In this document: piece by piece, positions 9,646 to 61,484 of the stretch
How positions within the stretch are numbered: the stretch's first letter is position 1
Layout: every line of letters starts with the position of its first letter
Origin: a virus
Taxonomy: Duplodnaviria; Caudoviricetes
Strand: one strand, 5' to 3'
Virus record (IMG/VR): IMGVR_UViG_3300021400_000379
Span: 1-64,000 of that record
Length of the DNA stretch: 64,000 bases
The notes under the pieces: generated by a model
What the model was told of the DNA's origin: nothing
The model's database searches: none
What the model saw: the letters and a program-made list of their open reading frames with translations, nothing else
Made by a program: the position numbers and the translations under genes

Positions 9646-9687
9646 ACCGTTCCCACGGACAAACCTTTTTCAAATTGAGGTGAAAAT

Positions 9688-10296
9688 ATGACACACGCAT
9701 TAGTTATTGTTGATATGCAGAATGACTTCATCGACGGAGCTTTTGCAAACCCTGAAGCACAGAAAATCGTACCGAAAGTGGCAGATCTCATCAGAAAATG
9801 GGACGGCCCGATTTATGTGACCCTTGATACTCACAAGGCCGAGGATTGGATGCGCACATCTTGGCATAAGGTCCTCAGGACTGAGATGGAGAAGCTCCCT
9901 GAGCATTGTATCAAATATACTCAGGGCTGGTTGCTTGCGCCCGAAATTGTCGAGGCGCTCAAGGGGAAAGATTACAAGATTATAGAGAAGGAGTCCTTCG
10001 CAGCAAGAGATTCCTTCCTGCATAGTTGCATAAATGTGTCGTCAGATATGAAATCTATCACCCTTGTCGGGCTCTGCACGGACATCTGCGTTGTATCTAA
10101 TGCATTGGAATTAGTTTCCGAGCACCCTTACACTACCGTGAGGGTTATCAGCGACTTGTGTGCGGGAACTACTCCCAAAAATCACGAAGCAGCCCTTGCA
10201 GTGATGATGTCCTGCTTGGTCGAGGTGACTGATTCTCATGAATTGCCTGAGGTATTGGATAAAGAAGTCAAAGAGAAGGAGGAGTATAATTGCTGA
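9688..10296 (+). CDS. pncA: nicotinamidase (isochorismatase-family cysteine hydrolase)
   Basis: VDMQNDF, TLDTH, HCI, K, GLCTDICV catalytic motifs; GAGGTGA RBS. Confidence 0.9.
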   Translation: MTHALVIVDMQNDFIDGAFANPEAQKIVPKVADLIRKWDGPIYVTLDTHKAEDWMRTSWHKVLRTEMEKLPEHCIKYTQGWLLAPEIVEALKGKDYKIIEKESFAARDSFLHSCINVSSDMKSITLVGLCTDICVVSNALELVSEHPYTTVRVISDLCAGTTPKNHEAALAVMMSCLVEVTDSHELPEVLDKEVKEKEEYNC

Positions 10297-11180
10297 CATT
10301 CAGAAACCTGAACGCGGGTATATGCGAACCCGTTCCAGACATCACCGTCAAATGGTACAATGACGGTACACCGAGCATACAGATACCAAGCCAATGGAAG
10401 GTATGTGGACAGCAGAACAGGGTACAGCTGGTCATCGAATGGAGGTTCGAAGCGGATATCTGGGAGAAGGAACTCTTCGTCTTGCAGTGCGTGATGGCGG
10501 AGATCGGTCGCGGAATCGGTGTGACCTTGTTCATGCCGTACGTGCCCAACGCCAGGATGGACAGGGTACCCCCAGCGAAGCGGGATGCATTCACTCTGAA
10601 GACGTTCGCCAAAATCATCAACAGTATGGGATTCGACAAGGTGGGCGTCCGTGACCCGCACTCCGACGTGACCACTGCGCTGATTGACAGGTGTGAGGCA
10701 GACAAGCCCTGGCCAGGAATAAACTGGTTGGCGGCGAATACCAACAAGCCTGTCTGGCTGTTCCCTGACGCGGGAGCGATGCACAGATACGCAGACATTA
10801 TCCCTGAGGGGCAGGACGTGACCTATGGAACGAAGGTGAGGAACTGGGATACTCAGTACATCGAAGGATACAAGCTGATGGCTGGGAACATGCTGTGCGG
10901 TCGCAACGTGGTCATCGTGGACGACATAATCTCCCACGGATACACCCTGCTGTTCCTGCTGAAGGCGCTGGAGGAGTACTGCCCGAAGTCGGTGAAGATA
11001 TATGCGACACACGTCGAGGACTCCTTTGCCGACGGAGAGCTGTATAAGCAGCTCCGTAGCGGAGAGCTGAACGCCGAGGTGTACACGAGCAACTCGATAG
11101 TTAGGAAGAGGATACAAGAGGAAACTGTGGCGATCAATCCAACGGTAATCCGTTTGAAAATAAAGGAGGAGAAGGAATGA
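10290..11180 (+). CDS. phage-type ribose-phosphate pyrophosphokinase-like protein (candidate ADPR-PP synthetase)
   Basis: MPYVPNARMDR, DPHSDV, FPDAGA, KVR, IVDDIISHGYT. Confidence 0.85.
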   Translation: MLTFRNLNAGICEPVPDITVKWYNDGTPSIQIPSQWKVCGQQNRVQLVIEWRFEADIWEKELFVLQCVMAEIGRGIGVTLFMPYVPNARMDRVPPAKRDAFTLKTFAKIINSMGFDKVGVRDPHSDVTTALIDRCEADKPWPGINWLAANTNKPVWLFPDAGAMHRYADIIPEGQDVTYGTKVRNWDTQYIEGYKLMAGNMLCGRNVVIVDDIISHGYTLLFLLKALEEYCPKSVKIYATHVEDSFADGELYKQLRSGELNAEVYTSNSIVRKRIQEETVAINPTVIRLKIKEEKE

Positions 11181-12664
11181 AATACAACCCAATGTTAGCA
11201 TGCGACTATTACAAAGCAGTTCACGCACAGATGTTACCGAAAGGTATCACCAAGTCCGTGAGCTACTTCACACCAAGGAGCTCACGCATTCCCGGATGGG
11301 ATACGGCAGTGTTCTTCGGACTGCAGGGATTCATCAAGGAATATCTCATCGAGATGTTCAACGAGAATTTCTTCGGAAGACCTAGATTCAAGGTGATGAC
11401 AGAGATCAGGGCTGTCTTTGAGAATACCTTAGGCCCTCTGGAGTCCACGAATTACAAGAATATCGAACAGCTCCACGAACTCGGTTATCTGCCGATCGAG
11501 ATCAGGGCTTTGCCTGAGGGAATCCATGTCCCGATGGGTGTTCCGATGTTCTCCATCACGAACACCCACCCTGATTTCGCATGGCTCCCCCAGTATCTGG
11601 AGTCCTTGATATCCAGTGAGATGTGGCACGGAATCATCGTCGCAACCGTGGCAGACAAGTACAGGCAGATTGTGGATAAGTGGTATGAAAAGACCGTTGA
11701 AGACCCTTCTACCGCGAAGTTCGCCCTGAGTTGTTTTGATATGAGGGGTGAAGAATCGTTCTCCGATGCAGTGAAAGCGGGAGCAGCATGGGCAACATCC
11801 TTCGTGCCTTGTGCAACGGTGGAGACCGCACGGTACCTGAACGAGTATTATTACGTATTGGGTAGATCAATCTCCGGATCTCCTTCCACCGAGCACGCAG
11901 TGATGTGTTCCAATGCAGCTGTCGACGGGGATGAGGAAACATTCGTGAAAAGGATGCTGAAGGAAATATATCCTACGCAGAACTTCTCGATTGTGCTCGA
12001 TTCCTACGACTACTGGAGGATGGTGAAGGAAGTCCTTCCCAAGCTGAAAGAAGACATCCTTGCACATGATGGGTGCATGCTGGTTCGCGGAGATTCAGGC
12101 GACCCTGTCGAGGTAGTCACCCAGACCGTATTCGCACTGTGGGATATCTTCGGAGGCACTGCCAATTCCAAGGGCTACAAGGTTCTGGACCCGCACATTA
12201 AGGCAATCTATGGGGATGGAATCACCTTGCAGAGATGTGAGGAGATTTATTCCATCTTAGAGAGCCACGGATTCGCGGCCAACAACGTTGCATTGGGTGT
12301 GGGATCATATTCGATGCAGGCGGTAAACATCGATGGAGTGCACTATCCTTTCACAAGGGATACGTTCAACATCGCGATCAAAGCCACCTACATCGAAGTG
12401 AACGGGAAACCGTACATGATTCAGAAGAGCCCCAAGGTAAACGGAGCACACGGAGAGACTACCGAGTACTTCAAGAAATCCAAGAAAGGATGCATCGGGG
12501 TGTACAACGACTATTGTGATTATTATGCAAAAGATATGCTCACATACGATGAATTCACAAAAGACCCAGACAATCAGTTGAAAACAGTATTCAAAGACGG
12601 AAAGATAACTAAACCTACCTCATTGGATACTATCAGAGATCTTCTTGACTTCTATAGGGAGTGA
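11177..12664 (+). CDS. NAMPT-fold nicotinate/nicotinamide phosphoribosyl- or ADP-ribosyl-transferase
   Basis: DYYK..H, STEHAVMC, VLDSYD, RGDSGDP, IYGDGIT, TRDT, KKSKKG. Confidence 0.9.
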   Translation: MKYNPMLACDYYKAVHAQMLPKGITKSVSYFTPRSSRIPGWDTAVFFGLQGFIKEYLIEMFNENFFGRPRFKVMTEIRAVFENTLGPLESTNYKNIEQLHELGYLPIEIRALPEGIHVPMGVPMFSITNTHPDFAWLPQYLESLISSEMWHGIIVATVADKYRQIVDKWYEKTVEDPSTAKFALSCFDMRGEESFSDAVKAGAAWATSFVPCATVETARYLNEYYYVLGRSISGSPSTEHAVMCSNAAVDGDEETFVKRMLKEIYPTQNFSIVLDSYDYWRMVKEVLPKLKEDILAHDGCMLVRGDSGDPVEVVTQTVFALWDIFGGTANSKGYKVLDPHIKAIYGDGITLQRCEEIYSILESHGFAANNVALGVGSYSMQAVNIDGVHYPFTRDTFNIAIKATYIEVNGKPYMIQKSPKVNGAHGETTEYFKKSKKGCIGVYNDYCDYYAKDMLTYDEFTKDPDNQLKTVFKDGKITKPTSLDTIRDLLDFYRE

Positions 12665-12669
12665 AATAA

Positions 12670-13524
12670 ATGGACGACTACATGAAAGATTATGACGCAG
12701 AAGCCGCAGCAGACGATCTGATCAGGTGGATCAGGGCGTTCTTCAAGGGTTCTGGAGGTAAGACCGCGGTTATAGGTATGAGCGGAGGAAAGGACTCCAC
12801 CATCGTAGCAGCCTTGTGTGCAGAAGCATTGGGAAAAGAGAATGTTGTGGGGGTGATTATGCCGAACAGAAGAATGAAAGACGAAAAGACCGCAGTGAAC
12901 GCCGCCATGAAGTATTGTGGTAAATGGATGTACAGGTCTATCGGACCTGCATATCTCCACTTCGCGATCGGTGCAGGTTACAATGAATGCACTCCCAAGA
13001 TGGATAGAGATATCTATTGGGAAGATGGCCGTCACTGGTTGGAGCTTAGGGGGTTAGACGGATATGATCCTCACCTGACTGTGACAGACACAGCAGTCAT
13101 TAACCTCCCCGCTAGATTGAGGATGTGCGCACTGTACTTCGTGGCGCAGTGTGTAGAGCACGGCAGGGTCGCGAATACCTGCAACCTCTCCGAGGACTGG
13201 GTAGGGTATGCAACCCGTTACGGAGATGGAGCAGGAGATTTCGCGCCGTTGCACGATTATACCGTGCAAGAGGTCAAGGCCATCGGACATTATTTGGGCG
13301 TTCCCAAAGAGCTGGTCGAGAAAGTACCCGACGACGGACTCTGCGGCAAGACTGACGAGGACAATCTGGGATTCACATACGAGGTGTTGGACAGGTATAT
13401 CCGCACGGGCGAGTGTGAAGATCAGGCAGTCAAAGAAAAGATAGACCAGATGCATGTGAGGAATCTGTTCAAACTTGAACCGATACCCTATTGCTACAAT
13501 GGGTGGTGGAAAAACAAGGAGTGA
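12670..13524 (+). CDS. nadE: NH3-dependent NAD+ synthetase
   Basis: GMSGGKDS PP-loop, NLPARLRM, TCNLSE, GYATRYGDG, PDDGL, DEDNLG. Confidence 0.93.
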   Translation: MDDYMKDYDAEAAADDLIRWIRAFFKGSGGKTAVIGMSGGKDSTIVAALCAEALGKENVVGVIMPNRRMKDEKTAVNAAMKYCGKWMYRSIGPAYLHFAIGAGYNECTPKMDRDIYWEDGRHWLELRGLDGYDPHLTVTDTAVINLPARLRMCALYFVAQCVEHGRVANTCNLSEDWVGYATRYGDGAGDFAPLHDYTVQEVKAIGHYLGVPKELVEKVPDDGLCGKTDEDNLGFTYEVLDRYIRTGECEDQAVKEKIDQMHVRNLFKLEPIPYCYNGWWKNKE

Positions 13525-13529
13525 TACAT

Positions 13530-13760
13530 ATGAGTGTCGATAAGGCTTGGATTGATTAGTACCAGCAGGCGAAGGATAAATTGTGTAACGCGCTGTCTGA
13601 ATTTGAGTGGCAAGTCCTGGATCAAGTTCCAGATGCATTTTCAGGACATACTGATGAGATGTTTTCTGAAATTTCCAGACTTAGGGTGCAGTTGAGGGTA
13701 TATACCGATTTCCTCTGGGCTGCATACAACCTTGATAAGAAATTCGGAGATGTAGAATAA
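13530..13760 (+). CDS. hypothetical protein with in-frame TAG at codon 10 (76 aa by read-through)
   Basis: AAGGAGTGA RBS, ATG 13530, TAG 13557-13559, open to TAA 13758-13760; fills the gap after nadE. Confidence 0.75.
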
Positions 13761-41219: not shown

Positions 41220-41294
41220 GCCTCTATGGCCTAACAGAATGGCACTCGCCCTGTAAGCGAGCGATTGTGGGTGCAAGTCCCATTGGAGGCTCCA
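41220..41294 (+). tRNA. tRNA-Thr(UGU), atypical (C33, TGCAAGT T-loop)
   Basis: Acceptor GCCTCTA/TGGAGGC, U73, CCA; anticodon arm CTCGC-CCTGTAA-GCGAG. Confidence 0.8.
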
Positions 41295-41295
41295 T

Positions 41296-41371
41296 GTCCA
41301 GGTAACTCAGCTGGTAGAGTGTTCGGCTGTTAACCGAACTGTCCAAGGTTCAAGTCCTTGCCTGGACGCCA
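41296..41371 (+). tRNA. tRNA-Asn(GUU)
   Basis: Canonical cloverleaf, loop CTGTTAA, CCA. Confidence 0.95.
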
Positions 41372-41373
41372 AT

Positions 41374-41449
41374 AAGGGGGTAGGGAAGAGGTCATCCCAC
41401 TTGGCTCATAACCAAGAGATCGGTGGTTCAAGTCCATCCCCCCTTACCA
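41374..41449 (+). tRNA. tRNA-Met(CAU), archaeal initiator-like
   Basis: A1-U72, GGGA/TCCC D-stem, loop CTCATAA, CCA. Confidence 0.85.
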
Positions 41450-41454
41450 CTAAA

Positions 41455-41505
41455 CACAGACAGGTGATCAAACTGCAACTGGGAACTAGGTGCCTGTCTG
41501 TGACC
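41455..41505 (+). ncRNA. minihelix-like hairpin between tRNAs
   Basis: CACAGACAGG/CCTGTCTGTG 10-bp stem followed by ACC. Confidence 0.45.
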
Positions 41506-41513
41506 TTTAATCT

Positions 41514-41589
41514 GGGTTCGTGGTGTAGCTTGGCATCACCGTTGCCCTGGGAGCAACAGACTGCGGTTCAAATCCGCACGAACCCACCA
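41514..41589 (+). tRNA. tRNA-Pro(UGG) with C33
   Basis: GGGTTCG/CGAACCC; arm GTTGC-CCTGGGA-GCAAC; CCA. Confidence 0.9.
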
Positions 41590-41591
41590 AT

Positions 41592-41669
41592 GGACGTATA
41601 GCATAGTCGGTCCAATGCGCCGTTCTTATAAAGCGGAGATCGCCCGTTCGAATCGGGTTACGTCCACCA
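41592..41669 (+). tRNA. tRNA-Ile(UAU)
   Basis: GGACGTA/TACGTCC; arm CCGTT-CTTATAA-AGCGG; A73, CCA. Confidence 0.9.
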
Positions 41670-41671
41670 AT

Positions 41672-41749
41672 GGGCCTGTATCTCAGACAGGTTTGAGAAC
41701 CCGCCTTTTAAGCGGGTAGACAGGGGTTCGAATCCCCTCAGGCCCACCA
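41672..41749 (+). tRNA. tRNA-Lys(UUU)
   Basis: Arm CCCGC-CTTTTAA-GCGGG; CCA. Confidence 0.93.
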
Positions 41750-41754
41750 TAAAC

Positions 41755-41827
41755 AGTCCCGTAGTGTAGCGGTCAAGCACCTCGGCCTTTGGAGCCGATA
41801 ACCCTGGTTCGAATCCGGGCGGGACTA
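41755..41827 (+). tRNA. tRNA-Gln(UUG)
   Basis: Archaeal A1-U72 acceptor AGTCCCG/CGGGACT; loop CTTTGGA. Confidence 0.93.
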
Positions 41828-41832
41828 CCTAT

Positions 41833-41908
41833 GCCATCATAGGACAGTGACGAAACCGCCCGCTTCGTAAACGGGAGAGCGTGGGTTAGAAACCCACTGA
41901 TGGCACCA
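41833..41908 (+). tRNA. degenerate tRNA, probably Thr(CGU)
   Basis: GCCATCA/TGATGGC plus ACCA; loop TTCGTAA with C31-A39 mismatch; T-loop TTAGAAA; weak D-arm. Confidence 0.6.
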
Positions 41909-41909
41909 A

Positions 41910-41994
41910 GGGGAGATAGTCTAGCCTGGTAAGGCGGCAGTCTTGAAAACTGCAGCGACTCGGTCGCATGGGGGTTCAAATCCCTCTCTCCCCG
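41910..41994 (+). tRNA. tRNA-Ser(UGA)
   Basis: Long variable arm GCGAC-TCG-GTCGC; loop CTTGAAA; G73. Confidence 0.93.
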
Positions 41995-42010
41995 CTAATT
42001 TTAAAATTTT

Positions 42011-50929: not shown

Positions 50930-53344
50930 TCAGCTATTATTGAGCTGCGAGACAGTATTGGCCAAATCGAGCTGTTTGCTGATACCGAATGAGTATTTTG
51001 TACGCCCAGAGGGGTATTCTCTTGAATATTTTGACAGTGCCAGCTTCTGCGGATAGTATCTGCTGGGGAATTTCAGCCCCATCGCGGATACTGCGAGGTC
51101 CTGTTCGATATCGGTGAACTGTTTGACCGAGCTTACCGCGGGGAACAGCGCAGACCAGTAAGAATCAGGGCTGGTCTCGCCGTATGACCCGGAATTACGC
51201 TCGTTCGCGGTGAATGAGACCGATGTTCTGGTCTCTCCCCAATAGGCGAGCACCATATACAGCACCTTTCTGGCATAATACTCGGGCAGGACTGCGAAAT
51301 ACTGTGTCAGGTCAAGAGTATACAGCCCAGGGCCTTCCCCGATATCCTTGATGGACTGCTCAGCCATGTCGCGGATGCTCGCATACTCGGGATTTTCCGA
51401 AGATACGGAGTATTTTACGCATGGGCCGTCTCCCGAAAGGGGAGAGATCCATTCTCCGATGATAGGGTCGCTCAGGTCGTCCGCTTTATACCTGCCGAAC
51501 TAGATCGTACGGGTCTTGACGGCCTTTTCCAGGCTCGTATATACGTTATATTTCACCGCGACCGTGTTATATGTCGTGGTAGAACCCTGTGCGTCCTGAG
51601 ATACAGTCCCGTAAACCCTTCCCATCAGACGGTCATATGTACGTTCGCTGTGCAACTCGACGGAATCCAGAGTAGCCCTCCAGTCCTCGGGGCTCATTTC
51701 AATTGCCTGGATGTTTCCCATCGCCTCGTCCCACCCGAATGATGGGTTGCTGCCCATATCAAGACCTGATCTCACGATGAGCCTGTTGAACGCTGTCCTC
51801 TTACGCTCGTCAGACCAGTCCTCGGATGCGGTACTGGGTATGTTCTCTGGCACTTCATCTGCCAATTTGGTATAATCTATGATATAAGCCCTGCTGTTCG
51901 CGAAGAATATGCGTGCGTTGCATATCATCGCGCATATCTGGAGGGTCGTCCAGATGTTCGCCCCCTTGATTATGGGGATGAACTCATCATGTGCGCTACC
52001 GAGCACGTCTAGAGTCATATCCTTCACGACGTCCTCATCGGTATGGATTGGTGCAGACCTGACCGCATTCACGGAAATCTTCGACACGTCCACGTTGGAT
52101 ATGATCTGGTAAGGCAAGTAATAGTACCGTGAGTACAGCCCCGTACCGATGATATCCAGGATCATCGACAGCGGATCGGTCCAAGTGATGTTTGACGTGA
52201 ATTTCATACCGCGGATTTCGCTGATTCCGCAATATGCGATCATATCGTAGGAATTATCCCGCAGGGCACACTCAGTCACGATATATTCCCCCCTGCCTAC
52301 GGCATTTATCTGCAGCTTGCTCTCACCGGGCTGGATTATCGCGATTACCTTATCAGTCTGCATGTTCACATTCCCAGCCAGTTCGGGATATGTTCTCATG
52401 AATGCCCTTTTGGATAATTTTAGGGACACGTGCTCAAAAGGCTCCTCCAGTCCGCCGGTCATTGTATATGAGCTCACCAAGTCAAGACCCATATACCCTC
52501 CGTGCGAGGGGTCTGGTTGACCCTGTCTCGACCCGATGGTCAACGCGTATTCGGGAGTCTGTATCAGCACCCCGTTCAACTTCTTGACCGCCCTGACCTT
52601 GATGGACGTGTCCCTGGTGAAATACCACTCGTTATACTCGTTATACGCATTGTAACAGCTTGCGGTATTCAGATTGTCATAGATGGGGATATATCTGAGG
52701 GCGGGGTTCTTCTCATATAGCTCCCTAGGAATTGCCTCATACTCTCCGTCTATGTGAGTGAAGAGCACACTATCCTCGTGCCCCTCGGACAGTTTCTCGG
52801 TCAGCCTGCCGCCTACCACTACGACCATGGACCCCGTGAGGTATTCCGAGTCTCCGCAGTTCAAGTCGATCTCCACTTCTTGTACGAAGATGTTCACCGC
52901 ATGGCTGGAAGGTAACATCAGAGTTTGAGGGATGAATGTCTCTGTATCCTTTGTGATGTCCTCTGCATTCTTGGTATTGATGAACATGGTGTAACCGTCG
53001 GTCTTGATCTGCCACCTGTTTGCCAAGGACATGAGCGCGTCGCACCATTTGGCATTAGTCCATTTCCAAGAGGTCTTATCATAGTCGTCATCGTACACAT
53101 AGGTCATATATGTGCCGTTAGGCAACTTTTTCAAGGGGTTCTTGCGGGCAAATGTGAATGTATAACTGTTCGAGGTGTTGGATTCCAGCGCGTATGTCGA
53201 ATCTGTAGGCAGATTAGGGATGGGGATTGCGGTAATAGCCTTGTTCAGTGTGTCTGTAATCCCTGTCACTATCCCCAGATCATACATCGTTCCTGAATTC
53301 GTGCTGAAGCCCGTCCTTATCTGGATTAGTCCATATTCATCCAT
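50930..53344 (-). CDS. tail or baseplate protein, 804 aa by read-through of TAG at codon 615
   Basis: Track ORFs 51500..53368 and 50930..51367 are in frame and joined by 44 stop-free codons after the TAG at 51500-51502. Confidence 0.75.
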
Positions 53345-53348
53345 ATAT

Positions 53349-56300
53349 TCACCCGTTGTTAATGACATCTCCGAGGAATTCTATAATTATTACTCCGTCT
53401 GCTCCAGCTCCACCAGGCGTGGTATATGTGCAAGCCCCATAATCTAAGGCCTTGTGAACATAATTCACTGTATAATTCACAGTGTTAGTCACAACGCCTA
53501 GTGCCGCCTTCCATGTGTTTATATTGAACGCATTAATTATGGCGCCCCCTGGGGAAAATGCATGCATCTGTTGTTCTATCGGTACTTTGACTACCTCCAC
53601 CATTTCTTTGATGTTCAGGTCATAATCCTGCCACCTGAGCTTAGAGCATCCGCCTCCGCCGTACCTTGCGTTGCCTGCAGAGGAGGTTACAGTACATGTC
53701 GGGTCCTTGGTAGAGGTGGCTGTTTGACTTAAGATGCACCCCCCGAGACTTCTGATGAGCTTCGCCTGAGCTTGCCTGCCGGAGAATTCTGCGTCGCCTG
53801 TCGCAGACCTGCCAGAAACGACCCAGATATTGGAGCTGGCCCGATAATGCCTATTAATGTTCGCCGCAGCTCCCCCAGAACTCGGATATACAACAGGATT
53901 GTTGTTCGGGTATGCCCCGTATCCCATACCTCCCCTGATAGAGTCGGGATCAGCCTCGCCCGTAGAGCTGTTCTTCGATAATTCTCCATCTGTGGGGGAC
54001 CCCTGGGACCCTTTGATGGCCTCTCCCGAGTCCCATCTGAGGTCCACATCCTTGCTGGTGGAGTTCTCCCCTCCGTTATAGGCTCCTGTACCTCTTTTAT
54101 CTCTGCCACCGGCCTCTCCGCCTCCGGCACTGACGATTAATGCACTGCCATATCTGATTTCAGAGCTCTCACCATTGATTTCCGACGCTCCGCCCGCACC
54201 CAAGGTCAACGAGAATTCCCTGATACCCTCTTTGGAGATATGCACGGTCCTGGCAACGGTAAATCCGCTTCCGCCGCCCCCGCCGACCATGAATGACGCG
54301 AGCTTGAACCTTATAATGTCATTCCCGCCAGTGATTTTCTCACCTGTGGCATAGCTGGAGCCGCCACCTCCGCCTCCGCCTACGGCGATACATTTAGCAT
54401 ATGCGTGGGTGTTTCCCTCCAATATCGTATTCCACAAGGTATCATGAGGGATTCTGACCTCGTAGGATCCGTTCACGGGGGCCTCGAAGACTACTACACC
54501 CAAGACCCGCCTGTATTTTATCGTGAACACCTGAGTGGAATCGATGTCTTGACCCTCCTCCTTGATGGTTTGCAGAGTAATCGGAAGCTCATCCCCGGGA
54601 TAGGCATACCTTGTCACGGTCTTCTTCTCCATCACGGTAGACCCTTCCGACACGGGCGCACTCTCTTCTACGGTATATGCCCAGCATGCGGGCTCAGTAC
54701 CCTCTTCTTGGAGCACGTCCTCAGGGAACTGGGGGGCGATATAGACCCCATTGTAGGTTTCAAGCGTGATTCCTTTAACTTGTCCATCACGGTTGACATA
54801 TCTGAATACGATCGACTGCTTCTTGATTGCGTTCCTTCCGCGCATGGATGCGACGGTAAACTGGAGGGTAAGTGTTACGCCTGCCCTGTTATATGGATAC
54901 TGGAGCGGTGCAGAGAGGAACACGTTCTTATCGATCTTGGGGTACCCGTTATAGGATATGAGCGGGTCGAGGATGAGATTGTACCCTCCGCTCCTTTCCT
55001 CCTTGACGTCGTAGTTGGAATTCTGCCACTGGTCGAAGAAGGTCTTGACATATTTCACCCATTTGTTCGTCGACCAATCCGCGGGATTATGGCTCCTGTC
55101 ATTAGGTTTGGCAGGTGGGGTGCGGGTGACGGTGATTATGCATGTCTCCAAATTACCCAGATCTATGATATAGTTGAACTCCGAGGATTTTGTGAGCATC
55201 GGCGATTGATTCAGCTGCACCCTCACCTTTCTGCGGACGTTGGTGATTGCCAGGTTAGGCTGGGTCTCCGTGGACAGGTATAACTTCTGCATATCCTCCT
55301 TGTGTTTCGTAGGATATTTGGTCACTACACACAGCGGGGCAAGGGGCAGTTCATCCAATATCTTCAGCAGGAGCACATTGTGCTTCTCCTTCGGACTCTC
55401 GCCTTGTACCGCCTCTGGGTATGTGACGAAATCCACCGCATAGAGTCCTTCATCAGCCCTTTCGGACACGAATGTTGCCCCGAATGTCTCCACCGACACA
55501 TACTGAGTCGTAGCACCCTGCACTCTTGCCTCGAAGTGTTGGGTCTGTTTGCCCGTGGCCGCCAGCCATGACGCATATATCTCGTTGAATATCCAGTATC
55601 CGCTGGAATCCGTCACGAGCTTATACGTTCTGATCTCGGCAGGCTTCTGGGGGAGCCTCATATCCAGAGTATGCGCATATTTGTTAGATAATACAATCCA
55701 GTTTCCTGTATTGTCCATGTCCGAGCGGACCTGGGTATAACTTGCGTCCAATATGCTGACTCCCTTGGTCTCGGTAAGGGATGGCGTGAGCAGGGTATAA
55801 TCTGGGTTGGTCGGGTCCACATATATCCTGACTGTCTCTCCAGGAGTAAGTGTCAGGGTGACCTGTGTCTCACCAGATCCATTGATTGGTATCAACTCCG
55901 ACGAAGGATCGGACGGGTTGCTGAACCTGTACATGAGTCCAGTAACGTAACCCACTCCCGCCTGGAATATCACTTTCGGGAACTGGGAGAAGGGAATCGT
56001 CACATCCAGCGACTCGCCGGGAATCACAAACGACTTGGCCCATAACGGATTCGCAATAGCCATCACATACAGCTCCACGGTCGCTTGGTTCCCGTAGGGG
56101 ATCGCCAGGTCGGTGACATGAGAGATAACATTGTCCTGGGTATTGAACGCGATTGCTCTCACGGTGTCGGTAGTCTGGTCAATCCAACTGACCGCGGGAG
56201 TGATATCCAAGTACTCGTAGGTCTCATGGTCCTCGGTCTCCCACGCTACCGGGCCGATACAGCTATATTCTGTGCTGGCCCAAGCCCATTCAAGGTTCTT

Positions 56301-59300
56301 TGGAGACCATACCGCGTGTACAACGATTGCTCCAGCTCTAGCAGGAACGCTATACCCTACGACTTCACCCGCTTCCTCGGTCGGAACGATGCCCTCTCCC
56401 TCCCATGCGGACCATGTGCGGGTCTCCATCAGCGGGACGATATTCGTCAATTGAATGGTCTGCCCCGTATAATCGGTATAATACCTGCGGAGATTCGCGG
56501 GAGTCGTACCCGTCGGCCAAACGCCCCCGTCCAAGTCGTAGACAAGGTCTGTGGTCCATGCCGCATATAGCGTCTTGCTCTCGGTAGCATTTGCGGCCAG
56601 TGTGACAGCGGACTCCAAAGCCCCGTTCTGGGTAAGAGTCCATCCTCCGTGTATATGCTGACTGTCTCCGCTGGCGGCTCTGTATCCGCCGAGTTGCCAA
56701 GTTCTATCCATCACGGTCTCGGTAGATCTCCTGATCCAATTTATCCTAGCGGGAAGGATGACGTTGTTCCCCGCGGTGGCGTCGGTGTTCTCGAACGAGA
56801 TGGTAGATAGTTTGAACTGTATCTGAGAAGATGGGACGACTCCGCTGGAGGCGTTTATATTAATCGGCTTGAAGGTGAATGAATATGTGCCAGCGTCACA
56901 TTCGCTGAAATCCAGTTCTACCGTAGATACATTGGAATTACGGGTAATCCTGACGGGGACCGATCCCGTAGACGCCTGCGAATCGAGCACTATGGTCGGA
57001 TTGGCCGCGTCCGTCGGGGTCGCAATATATCTGATGGTCACCTTGTCTGGGCCGATTTCCACTCCGCTTTCCGTAAGGGTCGTGACGAACTTACCCCAGG
57101 TGGCATAGAAAACCACCTGGCTATTCTCCTCAGGATATGCACCCAACGCGTTGAGATATGTGCCGTAATAGTCTATTCCTGCGGAATATTCAGGAGTGCC
57201 GTCGATTGTCCTTGCAAATCCCATGAACGAGTTGTGTCCGCCATCCTCCAGGGCCACGATCTGTTCGCTGGTAGCGAAATCAGAGATGTCCAACACATTC
57301 GACTCGCCATAGGTCACAGGCATGATATAAGTCTCCGGCGCAGTGGCGTCGTTAGCACCTTTGTTGACCAGGAGTCTATATGTGGAATGCCTGCACTCCG
57401 CGAACAGACGGATGGTTGCGGAGCCTCCGGGTATAGAGCTCGCCTGGACTGTCGCGACCAATCCATCGTTCTCGGGGGTGTACACGATTGGTCCTGTGGA
57501 AAGATTAACTCCGTCTGGGTCATATGTCTGCCCAAGATATATCTTCGAGACATGCCACTTCGCTTGGGTCTCGGCAGACACATATTCCTGATCCGTCGGA
57601 ATTCCGAGCTTGGACACGGCGTTAATGGTGATGGTGTTTCCGAAGTCCGCTACCCAAGGTCCGAAATATCTAGGCTTGTAATTGTCCTCAGGGATTCCGT
57701 AGTACAGCATCAGCGTATACTGCGTGGTCCAGTCTGCGACATATTTAGGTGTGGCCGTTGTAGCTGCGAATGTATTGAATGCCACAGGGGTCTCTGCACG
57801 GCCACCTGCGTCAATCTCATGCGCAGGAGTATCAATGTCATCCCATCCGTTGAATACTCCTCCTCCCGTAGGCGTGAGGGTAGTCAGCGAGTACCTGACC
57901 TCGAAGGTGTATCCAGTCATGGCGGTACCGCTCATCGAAGGTACGAACCAATAATCCGCGGAGGGGGTCTGGCTCGGAGTAGTGTTATCGACACGAGAGT
58001 AATCTCCCGCATCTATCGGGCCCACCACGGTCTTGACCGGTTCTCCATCCTCTACGAATACCACATTTTGGACAGATGATGTGTAGGAGGTGTAGTAGGA
58101 TACTTCTACCGTGAACTTGGGAGAATATATACTGTAGACTGTTCCAGAGACCGTGGTCGTCAGCGTGACTTTATCCTTGGAATATGCCTGCACCTCCAGA
58201 TTAGACGCGCTCCACCCTCTGAAGGTGTATCCCTCTGTCGGACGGATGGCGTTCAGCATAGAGGTCAGAGCGACGGGTGACTGTCCCGCAGTGGTGCAGG
58301 TCCATACTCCCCCGACCTTCTCTATCGTCCAGATAGTCCCAGAATTTTGAATGGTCCAAGTGATTCCTGTGTCAGCTTCATGCTTCCTGGGCAGGGCGGA
58401 GGGGGCGATGTACGCGCCATTCTCCCTGATCGTCGCCTCGAAAGCTCCTACCAGAGTCTTCTTCATGGACATCGTGCATCCCTGTGCGATCAGGAAGGAG
58501 ATCGTACGGGTGTACATCCTCTCCCTCTCTACTGTCAGAACGATCTTCTGTCCGGGTTTGACCGCGATTGTAGTGTAAGTCCCTGTTGCAGAATAGATAA
58601 CGGAGCTCCCGCTAATGACCCAGCCGTCGAAATACCAGCCGTCCACCTGCGTACTGCGCCCGCTCTCGTCCACATATGTGCCCGCTTCCAATACAGGTAC
58701 ATTGCTGATGATCTGGTGTTGCATGTTGCTGCCGATATACCCTGTGAGAGTTATCGTCGTCTCCTCGGGTGTGTCATTGGGTGCCCAGCTCTCTCCTCCT
58801 CCGTTGCGGTTGGGATCCAATACATATGAGACTGTGCCCTGTCCCTTCCAGACCGCGTAATAGATATAGTCTGCCCCAATGTCTACGGATGAGCCAGCAG
58901 CATGGATTACGCCCGTATCATCGATTGTAGGGCCGTATCCGATGAAGTTTCCGTTCTCGAACAAAGCCGCCGTAGTCCAGCCGTGATAGGTGTATTGAAG
59001 CCCGTCTTTGGTCCAGCCCGGAATTGCGGCTGGCGCTGTTCCAGAGAGGTGTGTCGTAGCTTTCACCGTTGAATACGCCGTCCAAGCGGGAGACCATACG
59101 GTCACGGTGGAGAATGTGCTGGAATTCTCTCCAGCGGGGCGACGATCGTCATAGAACTTAGAGTCGTATCTACGCTTATATTGTTCCGAACGGACATACT
59201 GGAGGTCCAATACCGTGTTTGCAGTGAATGTATACTGGGTGCCAAAGGAATATTCCGTAGACCCGCCTTGCACTTTGTATTTATTCGGCGTGAGTGTGGT

Positions 59301-61484
59301 CTTGGCCTGGGCGGTGAACGCATCCTCTGTGGCGTATGCGACGCTTGTCTTGACGATCTCGGTATATCCGCTGGAGGGGATGGTATAGTGCCATTGGACC
59401 CTGTGCGTCAAGCCCACGGTAGTTGAGGTATATCCGCCTACGGATAGGGTCTCGGATTCTGTCGCATGATGTGCGGGGACGATGGTAACGGCATCTGGGT
59501 CATACGCTCTGAGCGTGAGTGTGACCTTTAAGAACGGTACCGCATACAAAGTCAGGTTCTGCATATCCGTGATGTTCAGTATCGTCCTCTTCCCGGACTC
59601 ATATGCGAACGCCCAGTATTTCGCGGTATCCTCCGCGTCTATGGTATAGCTGGTCTCAGTACCAACGGTCGTACCCTGTGTCCAAGTAGGGATTGTGGTC
59701 CTGGAGGTTTGGGTTGCAGAGAGGTGCCACCCCTCATAGGTGTCTGTCGAGGTATCTGCTGGGTCATATGCAGAGACCCATTCGATTATCCAGTCATTCG
59801 CGTCTCCAAACCCGCTTACCGTGTCCTTATATGCGTTGCTGGCGGTATCATTCTTCTTCTTATACAGTGTCAGGGTGTGCGGGACGAGTGTATACGTTGC
59901 GGTCGCAGTAACACTCTGCGCGGGCATAGTGTTATTAGAAGAAGTCCAAGTATAAGTGTGACCGTAGGCGTATGCTACCGTATGATTCGGATCCATTCCC
60001 GCGCTGGCAATGTTTGTGGATATATTGGACCCGTAGGGGAATTTCTTGGTCTTGGATCCGGACACATTCACGCGCCTATAGACCTTTGTCACGTCCAACG
60101 ACCATTGTATGGTAAGATCATACCAATCCAGCCTGTATTTGGCATAAAGTGTGATGTTTCCGTATGCTCCGCCTGTCGCCGTCGAGATCTGTGCCAAGGT
60201 TATAGTGAACGACGCGGGTTTTGAGGAATCCGACTCCCCGGACGCAGTATCATCCGATACCTGTGTGAAGCCCCACCCTGTACATGTATATCCCGTGCGC
60301 CCCGTTGCTGCATAAATAGTCAAACTAGCGGTCTCTACAGTATAGTACGTCGGATTTCCAGTAGATGCTGTACCTTGCCCCGCATTGTATGTAATCGTAT
60401 ACTTATGCGGAGTCCAGTAAGCATATAGCGTGAGATTTTGATGTTCTGACGCAGGGGTGATTGTGGTGACTTTATTAGCGAAGCTATCCTCCCGATACCA
60501 TCCCTGGAAATCATAATGAGCCCTCCGTGTGGCTGCTTGTGTCTCAAGATCGATCTGGGAGGATTCTACCGTGTACGTTATTGGTGATACCGCAGAACCA
60601 CTGTTGGTCTGGAAGGTGATTGTATATGTTATAGGGGTCCATTTCGCCCAAATCTCTACGTCACCTATTGACCCCGCAGGAATTCCTGTTATCTGGGTCG
60701 TACCTTGTGCGTCGGTGTACCACCCCGAGAAGTTGTAATAACTTCTCGAAGGGTCGGCAAAGGTGATTGCACTGGACTCAACCGTATACTTTAACGGATT
60801 CGCTATCGCGTTGATCCCAGGAGAGACATGGTATGTGATGGTGTATTCAATCACACCCCATTTCGCGTATAATGTCAGATTACGGGCGGTCTCCGAGGGA
60901 GTGATCGCAGTCAATGGGTCTCCCGAATACTCCGCATTGTCATACCATCCCGCAAAGGTGTACCCCCTCCTTGTGGATATTGCACTGGTTGCAAGATCAA
61001 TCTGGGAGGATTCTACCGTGTACGTTATTGGTGATACCGCAGATCCGTTCACGGTATCGAACGATAGAGTATATTGTATCGGTGTCCAGGTCGCGGTAAG
61101 GGTCATTCCCGTTTCCGAGACTGTATCCTCGGAAGCTTGCCACGCCAGAGAATATCCTGTCTTAGTTACGGTCTGGGCAAAGTCGGCCAACACGTCTGCT
61201 TTGGCCATTCCAAGCGGAAAATCTTTGGTATATCCTCCTTGTATAGGGGTCCATCCTGCGGGAGCGGAGGGCACCGTCCCCCCACTGAGAAGTACTCTGG
61301 CAAATCCCGCGCCGGTTACAGTGTATTGGTCGGGAACAAGTACAAGCGAATAACTCTCGCGCTCCGTAGTATTCGGAATATACAATAATTCCTCTACTGG
61401 GGAGAAGACGAGTGAGTAACTGGTACGCTCAGTGGTATTCGGGAGCGAATCCCCCGCGTTAATATATTCTGTCAGTATCTCCAC
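53349..61484 (-). CDS. giant tail adhesin (2711 aa): Listeria-Bacteroides (InlB B-type) repeats, tail domain, Gly-rich C-terminal domain
   Basis: Repeated R.GY.F.GWY...TLYAKW units; AVGGGGGGGS...GGGGGSG...GADGVIIIE. Confidence 0.8.
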   Translation of the reverse strand: MEILTEYINAGDSLPNTTERTSYSLVFSPVEELLYIPNTTERESYSLVLVPDQYTVTGAGFARVLLSGGTVPSAPAGWTPIQGGYTKDFPLGMAKADVLADFAQTVTKTGYSLAWQASEDTVSETGMTLTATWTPIQYTLSFDTVNGSAVSPITYTVESSQIDLATSAISTRRGYTFAGWYDNAEYSGDPLTAITPSETARNLTLYAKWGVIEYTITYHVSPGINAIANPLKYTVESSAITFADPSRSYYNFSGWYTDAQGTTQITGIPAGSIGDVEIWAKWTPITYTITFQTNSGSAVSPITYTVESSQIDLETQAATRRAHYDFQGWYREDSFANKVTTITPASEHQNLTLYAYWTPHKYTITYNAGQGTASTGNPTYYTVETASLTIYAATGRTGYTCTGWGFTQVSDDTASGESDSSKPASFTITLAQISTATGGAYGNITLYAKYRLDWYDLTIQWSLDVTKVYRRVNVSGSKTKKFPYGSNISTNIASAGMDPNHTVAYAYGHTYTWTSSNNTMPAQSVTATATYTLVPHTLTLYKKKNDTASNAYKDTVSGFGDANDWIIEWVSAYDPADTSTDTYEGWHLSATQTSRTTIPTWTQGTTVGTETSYTIDAEDTAKYWAFAYESGKRTILNITDMQNLTLYAVPFLKVTLTLRAYDPDAVTIVPAHHATESETLSVGGYTSTTVGLTHRVQWHYTIPSSGYTEIVKTSVAYATEDAFTAQAKTTLTPNKYKVQGGSTEYSFGTQYTFTANTVLDLQYVRSEQYKRRYDSKFYDDRRPAGENSSTFSTVTVWSPAWTAYSTVKATTHLSGTAPAAIPGWTKDGLQYTYHGWTTAALFENGNFIGYGPTIDDTGVIHAAGSSVDIGADYIYYAVWKGQGTVSYVLDPNRNGGGESWAPNDTPEETTITLTGYIGSNMQHQIISNVPVLEAGTYVDESGRSTQVDGWYFDGWVISGSSVIYSATGTYTTIAVKPGQKIVLTVERERMYTRTISFLIAQGCTMSMKKTLVGAFEATIRENGAYIAPSALPRKHEADTGITWTIQNSGTIWTIEKVGGVWTCTTAGQSPVALTSMLNAIRPTEGYTFRGWSASNLEVQAYSKDKVTLTTTVSGTVYSIYSPKFTVEVSYYTSYTSSVQNVVFVEDGEPVKTVVGPIDAGDYSRVDNTTPSQTPSADYWFVPSMSGTAMTGYTFEVRYSLTTLTPTGGGVFNGWDDIDTPAHEIDAGGRAETPVAFNTFAATTATPKYVADWTTQYTLMLYYGIPEDNYKPRYFGPWVADFGNTITINAVSKLGIPTDQEYVSAETQAKWHVSKIYLGQTYDPDGVNLSTGPIVYTPENDGLVATVQASSIPGGSATIRLFAECRHSTYRLLVNKGANDATAPETYIMPVTYGESNVLDISDFATSEQIVALEDGGHNSFMGFARTIDGTPEYSAGIDYYGTYLNALGAYPEENSQVVFYATWGKFVTTLTESGVEIGPDKVTIRYIATPTDAANPTIVLDSQASTGSVPVRITRNSNVSTVELDFSECDAGTYSFTFKPININASSGVVPSSQIQFKLSTISFENTDATAGNNVILPARINWIRRSTETVMDRTWQLGGYRAASGDSQHIHGGWTLTQNGALESAVTLAANATESKTLYAAWTTDLVYDLDGGVWPTGTTPANLRRYYTDYTGQTIQLTNIVPLMETRTWSAWEGEGIVPTEEAGEVVGYSVPARAGAIVVHAVWSPKNLEWAWASTEYSCIGPVAWETEDHETYEYLDITPAVSWIDQTTDTVRAIAFNTQDNVISHVTDLAIPYGNQATVELYVMAIANPLWAKSFVIPGESLDVTIPFSQFPKVIFQAGVGYVTGLMYRFSNPSDPSSELIPINGSGETQVTLTLTPGETVRIYVDPTNPDYTLLTPSLTETKGVSILDASYTQVRSDMDNTGNWIVLSNKYAHTLDMRLPQKPAEIRTYKLVTDSSGYWIFNEIYASWLAATGKQTQHFEARVQGATTQYVSVETFGATFVSERADEGLYAVDFVTYPEAVQGESPKEKHNVLLLKILDELPLAPLCVVTKYPTKHKEDMQKLYLSTETQPNLAITNVRRKVRVQLNQSPMLTKSSEFNYIIDLGNLETCIITVTRTPPAKPNDRSHNPADWSTNKWVKYVKTFFDQWQNSNYDVKEERSGGYNLILDPLISYNGYPKIDKNVFLSAPLQYPYNRAGVTLTLQFTVASMRGRNAIKKQSIVFRYVNRDGQVKGITLETYNGVYIAPQFPEDVLQEEGTEPACWAYTVEESAPVSEGSTVMEKKTVTRYAYPGDELPITLQTIKEEGQDIDSTQVFTIKYRRVLGVVVFEAPVNGSYEVRIPHDTLWNTILEGNTHAYAKCIAVGGGGGGGSSYATGEKITGGNDIIRFKLASFMVGGGGGSGFTVARTVHISKEGIREFSLTLGAGGASEINGESSEIRYGSALIVSAGGGEAGGRDKRGTGAYNGGENSTSKDVDLRWDSGEAIKGSQGSPTDGELSKNSSTGEADPDSIRGGMGYGAYPNNNPVVYPSSGGAAANINRHYRASSNIWVVSGRSATGDAEFSGRQAQAKLIRSLGGCILSQTATSTKDPTCTVTSSAGNARYGGGGCSKLRWQDYDLNIKEMVEVVKVPIEQQMHAFSPGGAIINAFNINTWKAALGVVTNTVNYTVNYVHKALDYGACTYTTPGGAGADGVIIIEFLGDVINNG

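What the first reader, a model, noticed from the sequence alone, without database searches (positions are those of the whole stretch)
9688..13524. Four-gene NAD module: a possible deamidated NARP1-like anti-defence pathway in an archaeal virus
Seen: translationally coupled nicotinamidase, Prs-like, NAMPT-fold and NadE genes, with no NMN/NaMN adenylyltransferase in the window. Known: phage NARP1 uses a Prs homolog (Adps, ADPR to ADPR-PP) and a NAMPT homolog (Namat) to rebuild NAD+ directly after SIR2/TIR-type depletion, with no adenylyltransferase. Inference: here nicotinamide goes to nicotinate, nicotinate plus ADPR-PP gives NaAD, and NadE amidates it to NAD+. That route explains all four genes, and the NaAD intermediate might escape NADases. 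Alternative: an ordinary Preiss-Handler salvage finished by host NadM.
Basis: partly seen in the sequence, partly recalled or inferred. Interest (0 to 1): 0.88.

Follow-up and report, generated by a model that had tools for sequence, protein, structure and literature searches.

The report
Nicotinate-type NAD rebuilding module, archaeal virus
A tailed virus, probably of gut methanogens, carries four tightly packed genes that most likely rebuild NAD+ from ADP-ribose and nicotinamide through nicotinic acid; this variant of the phage counter-defence NARP1 implies an enzyme reaction I found in no paper.

Summary
Four overlapping or abutting + strand genes (9688-13524) encode a nicotinamidase, a Prs-like enzyme, a NAMPT-fold enzyme and an NH3-type NadE. 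No adenylyltransferase is found in the whole 99.6 kb virus record.

The Prs-like protein groups with phage Adps, not with cellular Prs. The NAMPT-fold protein lies inside the Namat radiation, not with Nampt. It keeps the catalytic core and most adenine-clamp residues.

Two nicotinamide-pocket residues are switched: Asp215 to Ala and Ala242 to Ser. Across 153 family representatives this switch marks essentially one clade. In 9 of 10 loci examined that clade travels with PncA and, where the contig reaches that far, NadE; in 0 of 6 Asp-type loci.

The best reading is a nicotinate-type NARP1: Nam to NA; ADPR to ADPR-PP; NA plus ADPR-PP to NaAD; NaAD to NAD+. The donor (ADPR-PP versus PRPP) is inferred, not shown.

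The same operon, usually with NrtR, is chromosomal in at least 73 Lachnospiraceae-type genomes. It also occurs in gut phages such as Phass-1.

The virus backbone is collinear with a Methanomassiliicoccales virus and avoids TAG stops, so an archaeal host is plausible.

This scan has already noted this module on other DNA (69 notes). I found no publication describing it.

The parts
9646..9687 (+). Short spacer before the module, with ribosome-binding site GAGGTGA 6 nt upstream of the ATG
   Evidence: Sequence read.
9688..10296 (+). Nicotinamidase (PncA-like, isochorismatase family), 202 aa: nicotinamide to nicotinate
   Evidence: Pfam PF00857 1.6e-24. The best solved relative is P. horikoshii pyrazinamidase/nicotinamidase 1ILW, 2.4e-13. 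The catalytic Asp, Lys and Cys align; a D-x-H ... H metal motif is present by my reading, but HMMER itself aligns the second metal ligand, His54, to Met.
10290..11180 (+). Adps-like Prs homologue, 296 aa, TTG start: inferred ADPR + ATP to ADPR-PP + AMP
   Evidence: phrog_619 4e-53. It scores 64 bits against true Prs TIGR01251, cut-off 113. It falls in a 97/97 clade with SPbetaL1, Staphylococcus, Felixounavirus and ICP1 Adps, apart from E. coli and Lachnospiraceae Prs. The DD ribose motif and the Lys185 equivalent are present; the PP loop reads DDIISHGYT.
11177..12664 (+). Namat-like transferase with a nicotinate-type pocket, 495 aa: inferred nicotinate + ADPR-PP to NaAD + PPi
   Evidence: PDB best hit is SPbetaL1 Namat 9w5w/9w5x at 2e-109, against Xanthomonas Nampt 1e-52 and human NAMPT 1e-45. 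Asp215 to Ala and Ala242 to Ser; core and clamp residues kept; 9-aa insertion in the clamp helix motif. It is nested in the Namat radiation.
12670..13524 (+). NH3-dependent NAD+ synthetase NadE, 284 aa: NaAD + ATP + NH3 to NAD+
   Evidence: TIGR00552 1.7e-44. The best PDB hits are all NH3-dependent NadE, and the SGGKDS P-loop is present.
13530..13760 (+). Small ORF abutting nadE, open only if its single TAG (codon 10) is read through; membership in the module is uncertain
   Evidence: Translation with TAG read as a residue; ribosome-binding site AAGGAGTGA. No family was assigned.

Best explanation
This is a nicotinate-type version of the phage NAD+ reconstitution pathway NARP1. After NAD+ is split into ADP-ribose and nicotinamide, PncA deamidates nicotinamide to nicotinate. 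The Adps-like enzyme pyrophosphorylates ADP-ribose to ADPR-PP. The Namat-like enzyme has a pyridine pocket remodelled for a carboxylate; it joins nicotinate to ADPR-PP and gives deamido-NAD (NaAD) directly, with no adenylyltransferase. NadE then amidates NaAD to NAD+. Shown here: gene content, clade membership, the residue switches and their co-variation with PncA and NadE. Inferred: the substrates of both middle enzymes, and the counter-defence role in this virus.
For: 1) The Namat-like protein is far closer to solved Namat (370 bits) than to Nampt (183 and 157 bits).
2) In a tree of 58 family members, 22 of 23 Ala/Ser-type proteins form one clade (support 99). That clade is nested among Asp-type Namat; NARP2-type Nampt sit on a separate long branch.
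3) Among 153 representatives, residue 215 is Asp in 102 and Ala or Ser in 51. Ala242 becomes Ser in 50 of those 51, against Ala in 101 of 102 Asp-type proteins. Both residues line the nicotinamide pocket (PMC12774641). F189, R192, H245, R306, D308, G390, S391, T398, R399, D400, clamp-loop Arg40 and the aromatic at 392 stay conserved.
4) NAMPT Asp219 is reported to define nicotinamide specificity (Khan et al., as cited in PMC7096376).
5) Context test. Ala/Ser-type loci carry PncA and a Prs-like gene, and NadE wherever the contig extends that far. These are the window, L001, L002/L003, MT835544, Phass-1, P0149, P0136 and P0147; P0131 shows PncA and the Prs-like gene, with the contig ending where NadE would lie; P0178 is too short to judge. 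Asp-type loci (SPbetaL1, Felixounavirus, ICP1, Staphylococcus CH1, P0151, P0156) carry neither PncA nor NadE.
6) The Prs-like protein clusters with Adps at 97/97, away from Prs.
7) No adenylyltransferase is present in the whole virus record. Bacillus phage G has a classical PncB route; it carries NadD and no Prs-like gene.
8) Four of five Lachnospiraceae genomes with the operon also hold a canonical PncB, and all five hold canonical Prs. The operon is therefore not their only Preiss-Handler route.
9) ADP-ribose-related genes ride in the module elsewhere: Macro (MT835544), NADAR and the ADPR-sensing regulator NrtR in 60 of 80 bacterial loci (PMC2330246).
Against: There is no biochemistry for any member. 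Namat keeps PRPP activity in vitro (10.1101/2024.02.11.579819; PMC12774641), so a PRPP donor is not excluded by clade membership. In the window's subclade the clamp helix motif carries a 9-residue insertion, so the equivalent of the second adenine-stacking aromatic (Tyr396) is uncertain. The window's Adps-like PP loop (DDIISHGYT) differs from both Adps and Prs. The published Adps-versus-Prs discriminators are not sharp at residue level. The Prs tree has few cellular outgroups. A housekeeping operon in Lachnospiraceae shows that the module is not inherently an anti-defence device.
Confidence: 0.58

Rival explanations
1. Ordinary Preiss-Handler salvage with a NAMPT-fold nicotinate phosphoribosyltransferase. 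PncA makes nicotinate, the Prs-like enzyme supplies PRPP, the transferase makes NaMN, the host NadM or NadD adenylylates it, and the viral NadE finishes.
For: The nicotinate-type pocket and the PncA and NadE partners fit this route equally well. Namat can still use PRPP in vitro (PMC12774641). NrtR-controlled prs-nadV operons were long read as committed PRPP supply (PMC2330246). Any host supplies a NaMN adenylyltransferase.
Against: The Prs-like protein groups with Adps, whose SPbetaL1 member gave no product in the Prs assay (10.1101/2024.02.11.579819). The transferase derives from Namat, not Nampt, and keeps adenine-clamp residues that a PRPP enzyme does not need. Four of five operon-bearing genomes already have a canonical PncB, and all five have canonical Prs. 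The one phage seen with a classical PncB route brings NadD and no Prs-like gene.
Confidence: 0.3
2. Canonical NARP1 (nicotinamide plus ADPR-PP gives NAD+ directly), with PncA and NadE as an unrelated second salvage branch that happens to be linked.
For: Adps-like and Namat-like genes are adjacent, as in NARP1.
Against: Asp215 is lost in all 51 members of the type, and a D215A mutant of Namat loses about 8-fold activity with nicotinamide (PMC12774641). The loss co-varies with PncA and NadE neighbours and with Ala242 to Ser.
Confidence: 0.05
3. The module is metabolic boosting of NAD+ supply for viral replication, an auxiliary metabolic gene set with no link to host NAD+-depleting immunity.
For: The same operon is a chromosomal, NrtR-linked housekeeping unit in many Lachnospiraceae. 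No NADase defence system of the presumed archaeal host was examined.
Against: This rival concerns the purpose, not the chemistry. NARP1, the parent system, is a demonstrated counter-defence (10.1101/2024.02.11.579819). A route that starts from ADP-ribose only pays when NAD+ has been cleaved.
Confidence: 0.25

Closest known systems
NARP1 (Adps + Namat) of phages SPbetaL1, Bas63 and ICP1, and of Paenibacillus foliorum (10.1101/2024.02.11.579819; PMC12774641; PMC13586617)
   Same: An adjacent Adps-clade Prs-like gene and a Namat-clade transferase. Conserved catalytic core, clamp-loop Arg and first clamp aromatic. No adenylyltransferase.
   Different: The pyridine pocket is switched (Asp215 to Ala, Ala242 to Ser). 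There is a 9-aa insertion in the clamp helix motif. A nicotinamidase and NadE are obligatory partners. The implied product is NaAD, not NAD+.
Preiss-Handler salvage (PncA, PncB, NadD, NadE), as carried whole by Bacillus phage G
   Same: It starts with PncA, ends with NadE, and uses nicotinate as the pyridine.
   Different: No classical PncB here (TIGR01513 scores 17 bits, cut-off 297), no NadD, and an Adps-like gene instead.
NARP2 (Nampt + Nmnat, Vibrio phage KVP40 type)
   Same: A NAMPT-fold enzyme in a virus.
   Different: The window's enzyme is not in the Nampt clade, and no Nmnat is encoded.
NrtR-regulated prs-nadV operons of gamma-proteobacteria (PMC2330246)
   Same: A Prs paralogue next to a NAMPT-fold gene under an ADP-ribose-sensing regulator; the bacterial copies of this module share that design.
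   Different: Those operons lack PncA and NadE and were read as nicotinamide/PRPP salvage. Their pocket residues were not examined here.
Phage Phass-1 (OQ749652.1), genes annotated nicotinamidase, ribose-phosphate pyrophosphokinase and nicotinamide phosphoribosyltransferase, followed by two hypothetical proteins
   Same: The same four enzymes in the same order, with Ala at the Asp215 position.
   Different: 34% identity, a canonical-length clamp motif, and an extra 139-aa gene before NadE. In the record, NadE itself is annotated as hypothetical.

Membership tests
NARP1 (Adps + Namat) | Prs-like gene of the Adps clade next to the transferase gene | tested here: met
   ATGA overlap between the two genes. 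The protein is in a 97/97 clade with four phage Adps, away from E. coli and Lachnospiraceae Prs. It scores below the Prs cut-off in TIGR01251.
NARP1 (Adps + Namat) | Adps catalytic Lys185 and DD ribose-binding motif | tested here: met
   The alignment with ICP1 Adps shows GTKVRN and VVIVDD in the window protein.
NARP1 (Adps + Namat) | Transferase belongs to the Namat clade rather than Nampt | tested here: met
   370 bits to Namat 9w5x against 183 bits to Xanthomonas Nampt; tree.
NARP1 (Adps + Namat) | Selectivity-clamp loop with a stacking Arg, Lys or Tyr (Arg40) | tested here: met
   Window Arg37 aligns with Arg40. Arg is present in 42 of 47 aligned members of the type.
NARP1 (Adps + Namat) | Clamp helix motif GSxxxxxxTRD with aromatics at positions 3 and 7 | tested here: inconclusive
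   Position 3 is Tyr and TRD is kept, but 9 residues are inserted (GSYSMQAVNIDGVHYPFTRD), so position 7 has no clear equivalent. Basal members of the type keep the canonical motif.
NARP1 (Adps + Namat) | Asp215 that hydrogen-bonds the nicotinamide amide | tested here: not met
   Ala in the window and in all 121 close homologues. It is coupled to Ala242 to Ser.
NARP1 (Adps + Namat) | ADPR to ADPR-PP and ADPR-PP-dependent dinucleotide synthesis | not testable with these tools
   Needs enzyme assays.
Preiss-Handler salvage | Nicotinamidase with Asp-Lys-Cys triad and metal site | tested here: met
   Alignment to 1ILW: the Asp, Lys and Cys align. HMMER aligns the second metal ligand, His54, to Met; a D-T-H motif three residues upstream fits by an alternative alignment of my own.
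Preiss-Handler salvage | Classical PncB-type nicotinate phosphoribosyltransferase | tested here: not met
   TIGR01513 scores 17 bits against a cut-off of 297. The host-lineage bacteria carry a separate true PncB.
Preiss-Handler salvage | NaMN adenylyltransferase (NadD or NadM) | tested here: not met
   No PF01467 match in the 99.6 kb record. The host copy could substitute.
Preiss-Handler salvage | NAD synthetase NadE | tested here: met
   TIGR00552 152 bits, cut-off 64; PDB hits.
NARP2 (Nampt + Nmnat) | Nampt-clade enzyme plus a virus-encoded Nmnat | tested here: not met

The most novel reading that the evidence does not exclude
The NAMPT-fold enzyme catalyses an undescribed reaction, nicotinate + ADPR-PP to deamido-NAD. 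This makes a four-enzyme route that rebuilds NAD+ from its cleavage products without any adenylyltransferase. Here it is carried by a virus of Methanomassiliicoccales, which would be the first NAD+-reconstitution counter-defence seen in an archaeal virus, and it is shared with a housekeeping ADP-ribose recycling operon of gut Lachnospiraceae.
Probability: 0.45. Interest if true: 0.82.

Novelty: new variant of a known kind. Interest (0 to 1): 0.7.

Why it matters
If the inferred chemistry holds, it adds a new enzymatic reaction and a fourth way for viruses to undo NAD+-depleting immunity. It would show that the same route is a regulated ADP-ribose recycling pathway in abundant gut bacteria. It would also extend NAD+-centred virus-host conflict to methanogenic archaea. 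The paired pocket switch (Asp215 to Ala/Ser with Ala242 to Ser) gives a simple sequence rule for separating nicotinate-type from nicotinamide-type Namat in annotation.

Tried and rejected
- A DNA-level search of phage records found only short 70% matches and was uninformative.
- NARP3 (PnuC + NadR) was read and set aside as unrelated.
- Adps-versus-Prs residue discriminators from PMC13586617 (Phe18, Arg87, Phe92) are either shared with Prs or not conserved among Adps, so they could not decide the donor.
- Three short gut phage scaffolds with NadE alone (MT836475, MT836279, MT835946), and cyanophage and pelagiphage NadE genes, show no link to a Namat-like gene.
- The attempt to name the MAG that holds a related viral contig failed: no names, and the record is not held.
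- A bacterial host (Lachnospiraceae) was my first guess, from 60% identity of the module. I dropped it after the backbone comparison with vir335.
- P0178, a Ser-type protein on a 4.6 kb contig, has no NadE downstream and is cut upstream, so it counts as inconclusive.
- No structure or complex prediction was run. The tools return no ligand geometry, so they could not settle the donor question.
Full report
**Observation.** The four + strand ORFs lie exactly where reported.
- 9688-10296 is an isochorismatase-family protein (Pfam 1.6e-24).
- 10290-11180 is Prs-like. It matches phrog_619 at 4e-53 but scores only 64 bits against true Prs TIGR01251 (cut-off 113).
- 11177-12664 carries NAPRTase and NAMPT_N domains (phrog_448, 2.7e-156).
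- 12670-13524 is an NH3-type NadE (TIGR00552, 1.7e-44).

The genes are joined by a 7-nt overlap, an ATGA overlap and a 5-nt gap. Each start has a GGAGG-type ribosome-binding site. The whole record is a 99,638-bp virus genome with direct terminal repeats. It holds no PF01467 adenylyltransferase, and the control search rang in 14 of 14 genomes.

**The transferase.** Against solved structures the 495-aa protein matches SPbetaL1 Namat (9w5w/9w5x) at 2e-109. A second phage chain (9ke8), deposited as Nampt and not identified further here, matches at 8e-92. Xanthomonas Nampt scores 1e-52 and human NAMPT 1e-45.

In that alignment Namat Asp215, which hydrogen-bonds the nicotinamide amide (PMC12774641), is Ala. 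The clamp-loop Arg40 is kept. The clamp helix motif GSFTYQYNTRD reads GSYSMQAVNIDGVHYPFTRD, a 9-residue insertion. All 121 closest database homologues share the Ala and the insertion.

I then took 150 representatives at 50% identity plus reference phage proteins.
- Position 215 is Asp in 102 and Ala or Ser in 51.
- A column scan found one more near-perfect discriminator, Ala242 to Ser: 50 of 51 against Ala in 101 of 102. Residue 242 is also listed in PMC12774641 as lining the nicotinamide pocket.
- Gly213 becomes Lys, Asn or Pro, and Ser239 becomes Gly.
- Every other catalytic, ribose-phosphate and adenine-contact residue is conserved in both groups.

A FastTree of 58 proteins puts 22 of 23 Ala/Ser proteins in one clade (support 99), nested among Asp-type Namat. 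Two NARP2-type Nampt sit on a long separate branch. Basal members of the clade (Phass-1, P0147, P0149) still have the canonical clamp motif, so the insertion is a later change. NAMPT Asp219 is reported as the determinant of nicotinamide specificity (PMC7096376).

**Co-variation with neighbours.**

Ala/Ser-type loci:

| Locus | Gene content |
|---|---|
| L001 (90.7 kb contig, transferase 73% identical) | PncA, Prs-like, transferase, NadE |
| L002, L003 (Lachnospiraceae chromosomes) | the same four genes plus NrtR |
| MT835544 | Prs-like, transferase, Macro, NadE, PncA |
| Phass-1 | all four genes |
| P0149 | all four genes |
| P0131 | PncA and Prs-like; contig ends at the NadE position |
| P0136 | all four genes plus NADAR |
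| P0147 | NrtR, Prs-like, PncA, transferase, NadE |
| P0178 | contig too short to judge |

Asp-type loci have neither PncA nor NadE: SPbetaL1, a Felixounavirus, ICP1, Staphylococcus CH1, P0151 and P0156.

NadE is rare in phages: 42 of 50,697 records, against 2,019 records with a Namat or Nampt homologue.

**The Prs-like enzyme.** In an IQ-TREE analysis, the window protein, the other phage copies and the Lachnospiraceae operon copies group with four phage Adps at 97/97, apart from E. coli Prs and the main Lachnospiraceae Prs. The catalytic Lys and the DD motif are present.

The PP loop varies as follows:

| Source | PP loop |
|---|---|
| Lachnospiraceae operon | DDICS[KR]GGTF |
| SPbetaL1 Adps | DDLSSFGGTF |
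| E. coli Prs | DDMIDTGGT |
| This window | DDIISHGYT (more divergent) |

SPbetaL1 Adps made ADPR-PP from ADP-ribose and gave no product in the assay for Prs activity (10.1101/2024.02.11.579819).

**PRPP or ADPR-PP.** This step is inferred. Evidence for ADPR-PP:
- Both middle enzymes derive from the NARP1 pair.
- The adenine-clamp residues are retained.
- No adenylyltransferase appears in this record, nor in the parts of the other phage modules that were fetched.
- Bacillus phage G is the contrast case. It carries PncA, a classical PncB, NadD and NadE but no Prs-like gene.
- Four of five operon-bearing Lachnospiraceae genomes also have a true PncB (559-583 bits). All five have Prs homologues above the cut-off, while the operon copy scores 84-118 bits.
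- ADP-ribose-related genes ride in or beside the module: Macro, NADAR and NrtR.

Evidence against:
- Namat retains PRPP activity in vitro.
- The clamp insertion in this subclade is of unknown effect.
- No member of the type has been assayed.

**Distribution.** A scan of species genomes found 315 with a relative. Of the 80 loci fetched, 73 carry the colinear four genes and 60 have NrtR directly beside them; the rest are cut by contig ends. Almost all are Lachnospiraceae and related Clostridia. The module is therefore primarily a cellular operon under an ADP-ribose-sensing regulator (PMC2330246), and viruses have taken it up several times.

**Host of this virus.** The terminase matches Bacillus phages and 'Caudoviricetes sp. 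vir335, host Methanomassiliicoccales' about equally. A whole-genome comparison is clearer. 48 of 274 stop-to-stop frames of 100 codons or more match vir335, some of them overlapping frames of one gene. The matches fall in two collinear blocks: capsid 37%, protease 39%, portal 41%, terminase 49.5%, tail genes, RecE-like nuclease 43%, helicase 42% and primase 33%.

Fifty annotated vir335 genes end in TGA (47) or TAA (3), and none in TAG. In this genome a tape-measure-like gene (50930-53380, minus strand) has one in-frame TAG, and its two halves both match one uninterrupted vir335 gene. This fits a host that decodes TAG, as pyrrolysine-using Methanomassiliicoccales do; that last point is my own knowledge. 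vir335 lacks the NAD module. I rate an archaeal host as likely, at about two in three. It is not proven.

**Comparison with the literature and with this scan.** I found no paper that links NARP1 with nicotinic acid, PncA, NadE or NaAD. The only paper holding both NARP1 and 'nicotinic acid' is the NARP3 report, which describes a PnuC-NadR route. Phass-1 is published with three of the four genes annotated, but the record offers no pathway reading.

This scan has already noted the same module many times: 69 notes in at least 63 genomes, with follow-up agents reaching the same reading. What is new in this window is the likely archaeal-virus setting and the Ala242Ser co-switch that I measured here.

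**Verdict.** It is a new variant of a known kind (NARP1). The nicotinate acceptor is well supported. The ADPR-PP donor is probable but unproven.

Noticed in passing
window 50930-53380 (- strand): A tape-measure-like gene is one 816-codon frame with a single in-frame TAG at codon 627. Both halves match one uninterrupted CDS of vir335. Among stop-to-stop frames of 150 codons or more in the genome, 87 end in TGA, 26 in TAA and 10 in TAG; ARAGORN finds no suppressor or Pyl tRNA in the 99.6 kb record.
   Followed up: partly
window 41220-41995: A cluster of nine tRNA genes on the + strand (Thr, Asn, Met, Pro, Ile-UAU, Lys, Gln, Thr, Ser), set within minus-strand structural genes.
   Followed up: no
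window 53349-61484 (- strand): A 2,711-aa ORF. It has only a weak 28% match over 222 residues to a vir335 tail-region gene, and no function was assigned.
   Followed up: no
P0183, P0206, P0212 (Namat homologues): Insertions of about 290 aa, bounded by Cys ... His-Asn as in inteins, sit exactly inside the Namat clamp helix motif, between GS[FY] and TYQ.
   Followed up: no
L102 (Bacillus phage G, JN638751.1 200123-207372): A complete classical Preiss-Handler set in one phage: an NrtR-like Nudix protein, PncA, PncB, a KptA-like protein, NadD and NadE, with no Prs-like gene.
   Followed up: partly
G003:C9:46070-50580 and G005:C4:116141-120490: In two Lachnospiraceae genomes the canonical PncB lies about 2 kb from a second Prs homologue. 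This is a separate Prs-PRTase pairing beside the nicotinate-type operon.
   Followed up: no
L015 (OMVY01000023.1, labelled Methanobrevibacter MAG), L032/L070/L077/L083 (labelled Bacteroides or Bacteroidaceae) and L063 (labelled Paludibacteraceae): Lachnospiraceae-type copies of the operon, about 60% identical to the window, sit on contigs binned into unrelated taxa. This is probably mis-binning rather than true distribution.
   Followed up: no
L004 9255-9878 and L106 3352-3771: A Macro domain gene and a NADAR domain gene are inserted inside two phage copies of the module. Both families act on ADP-ribose derivatives.
   Followed up: partly
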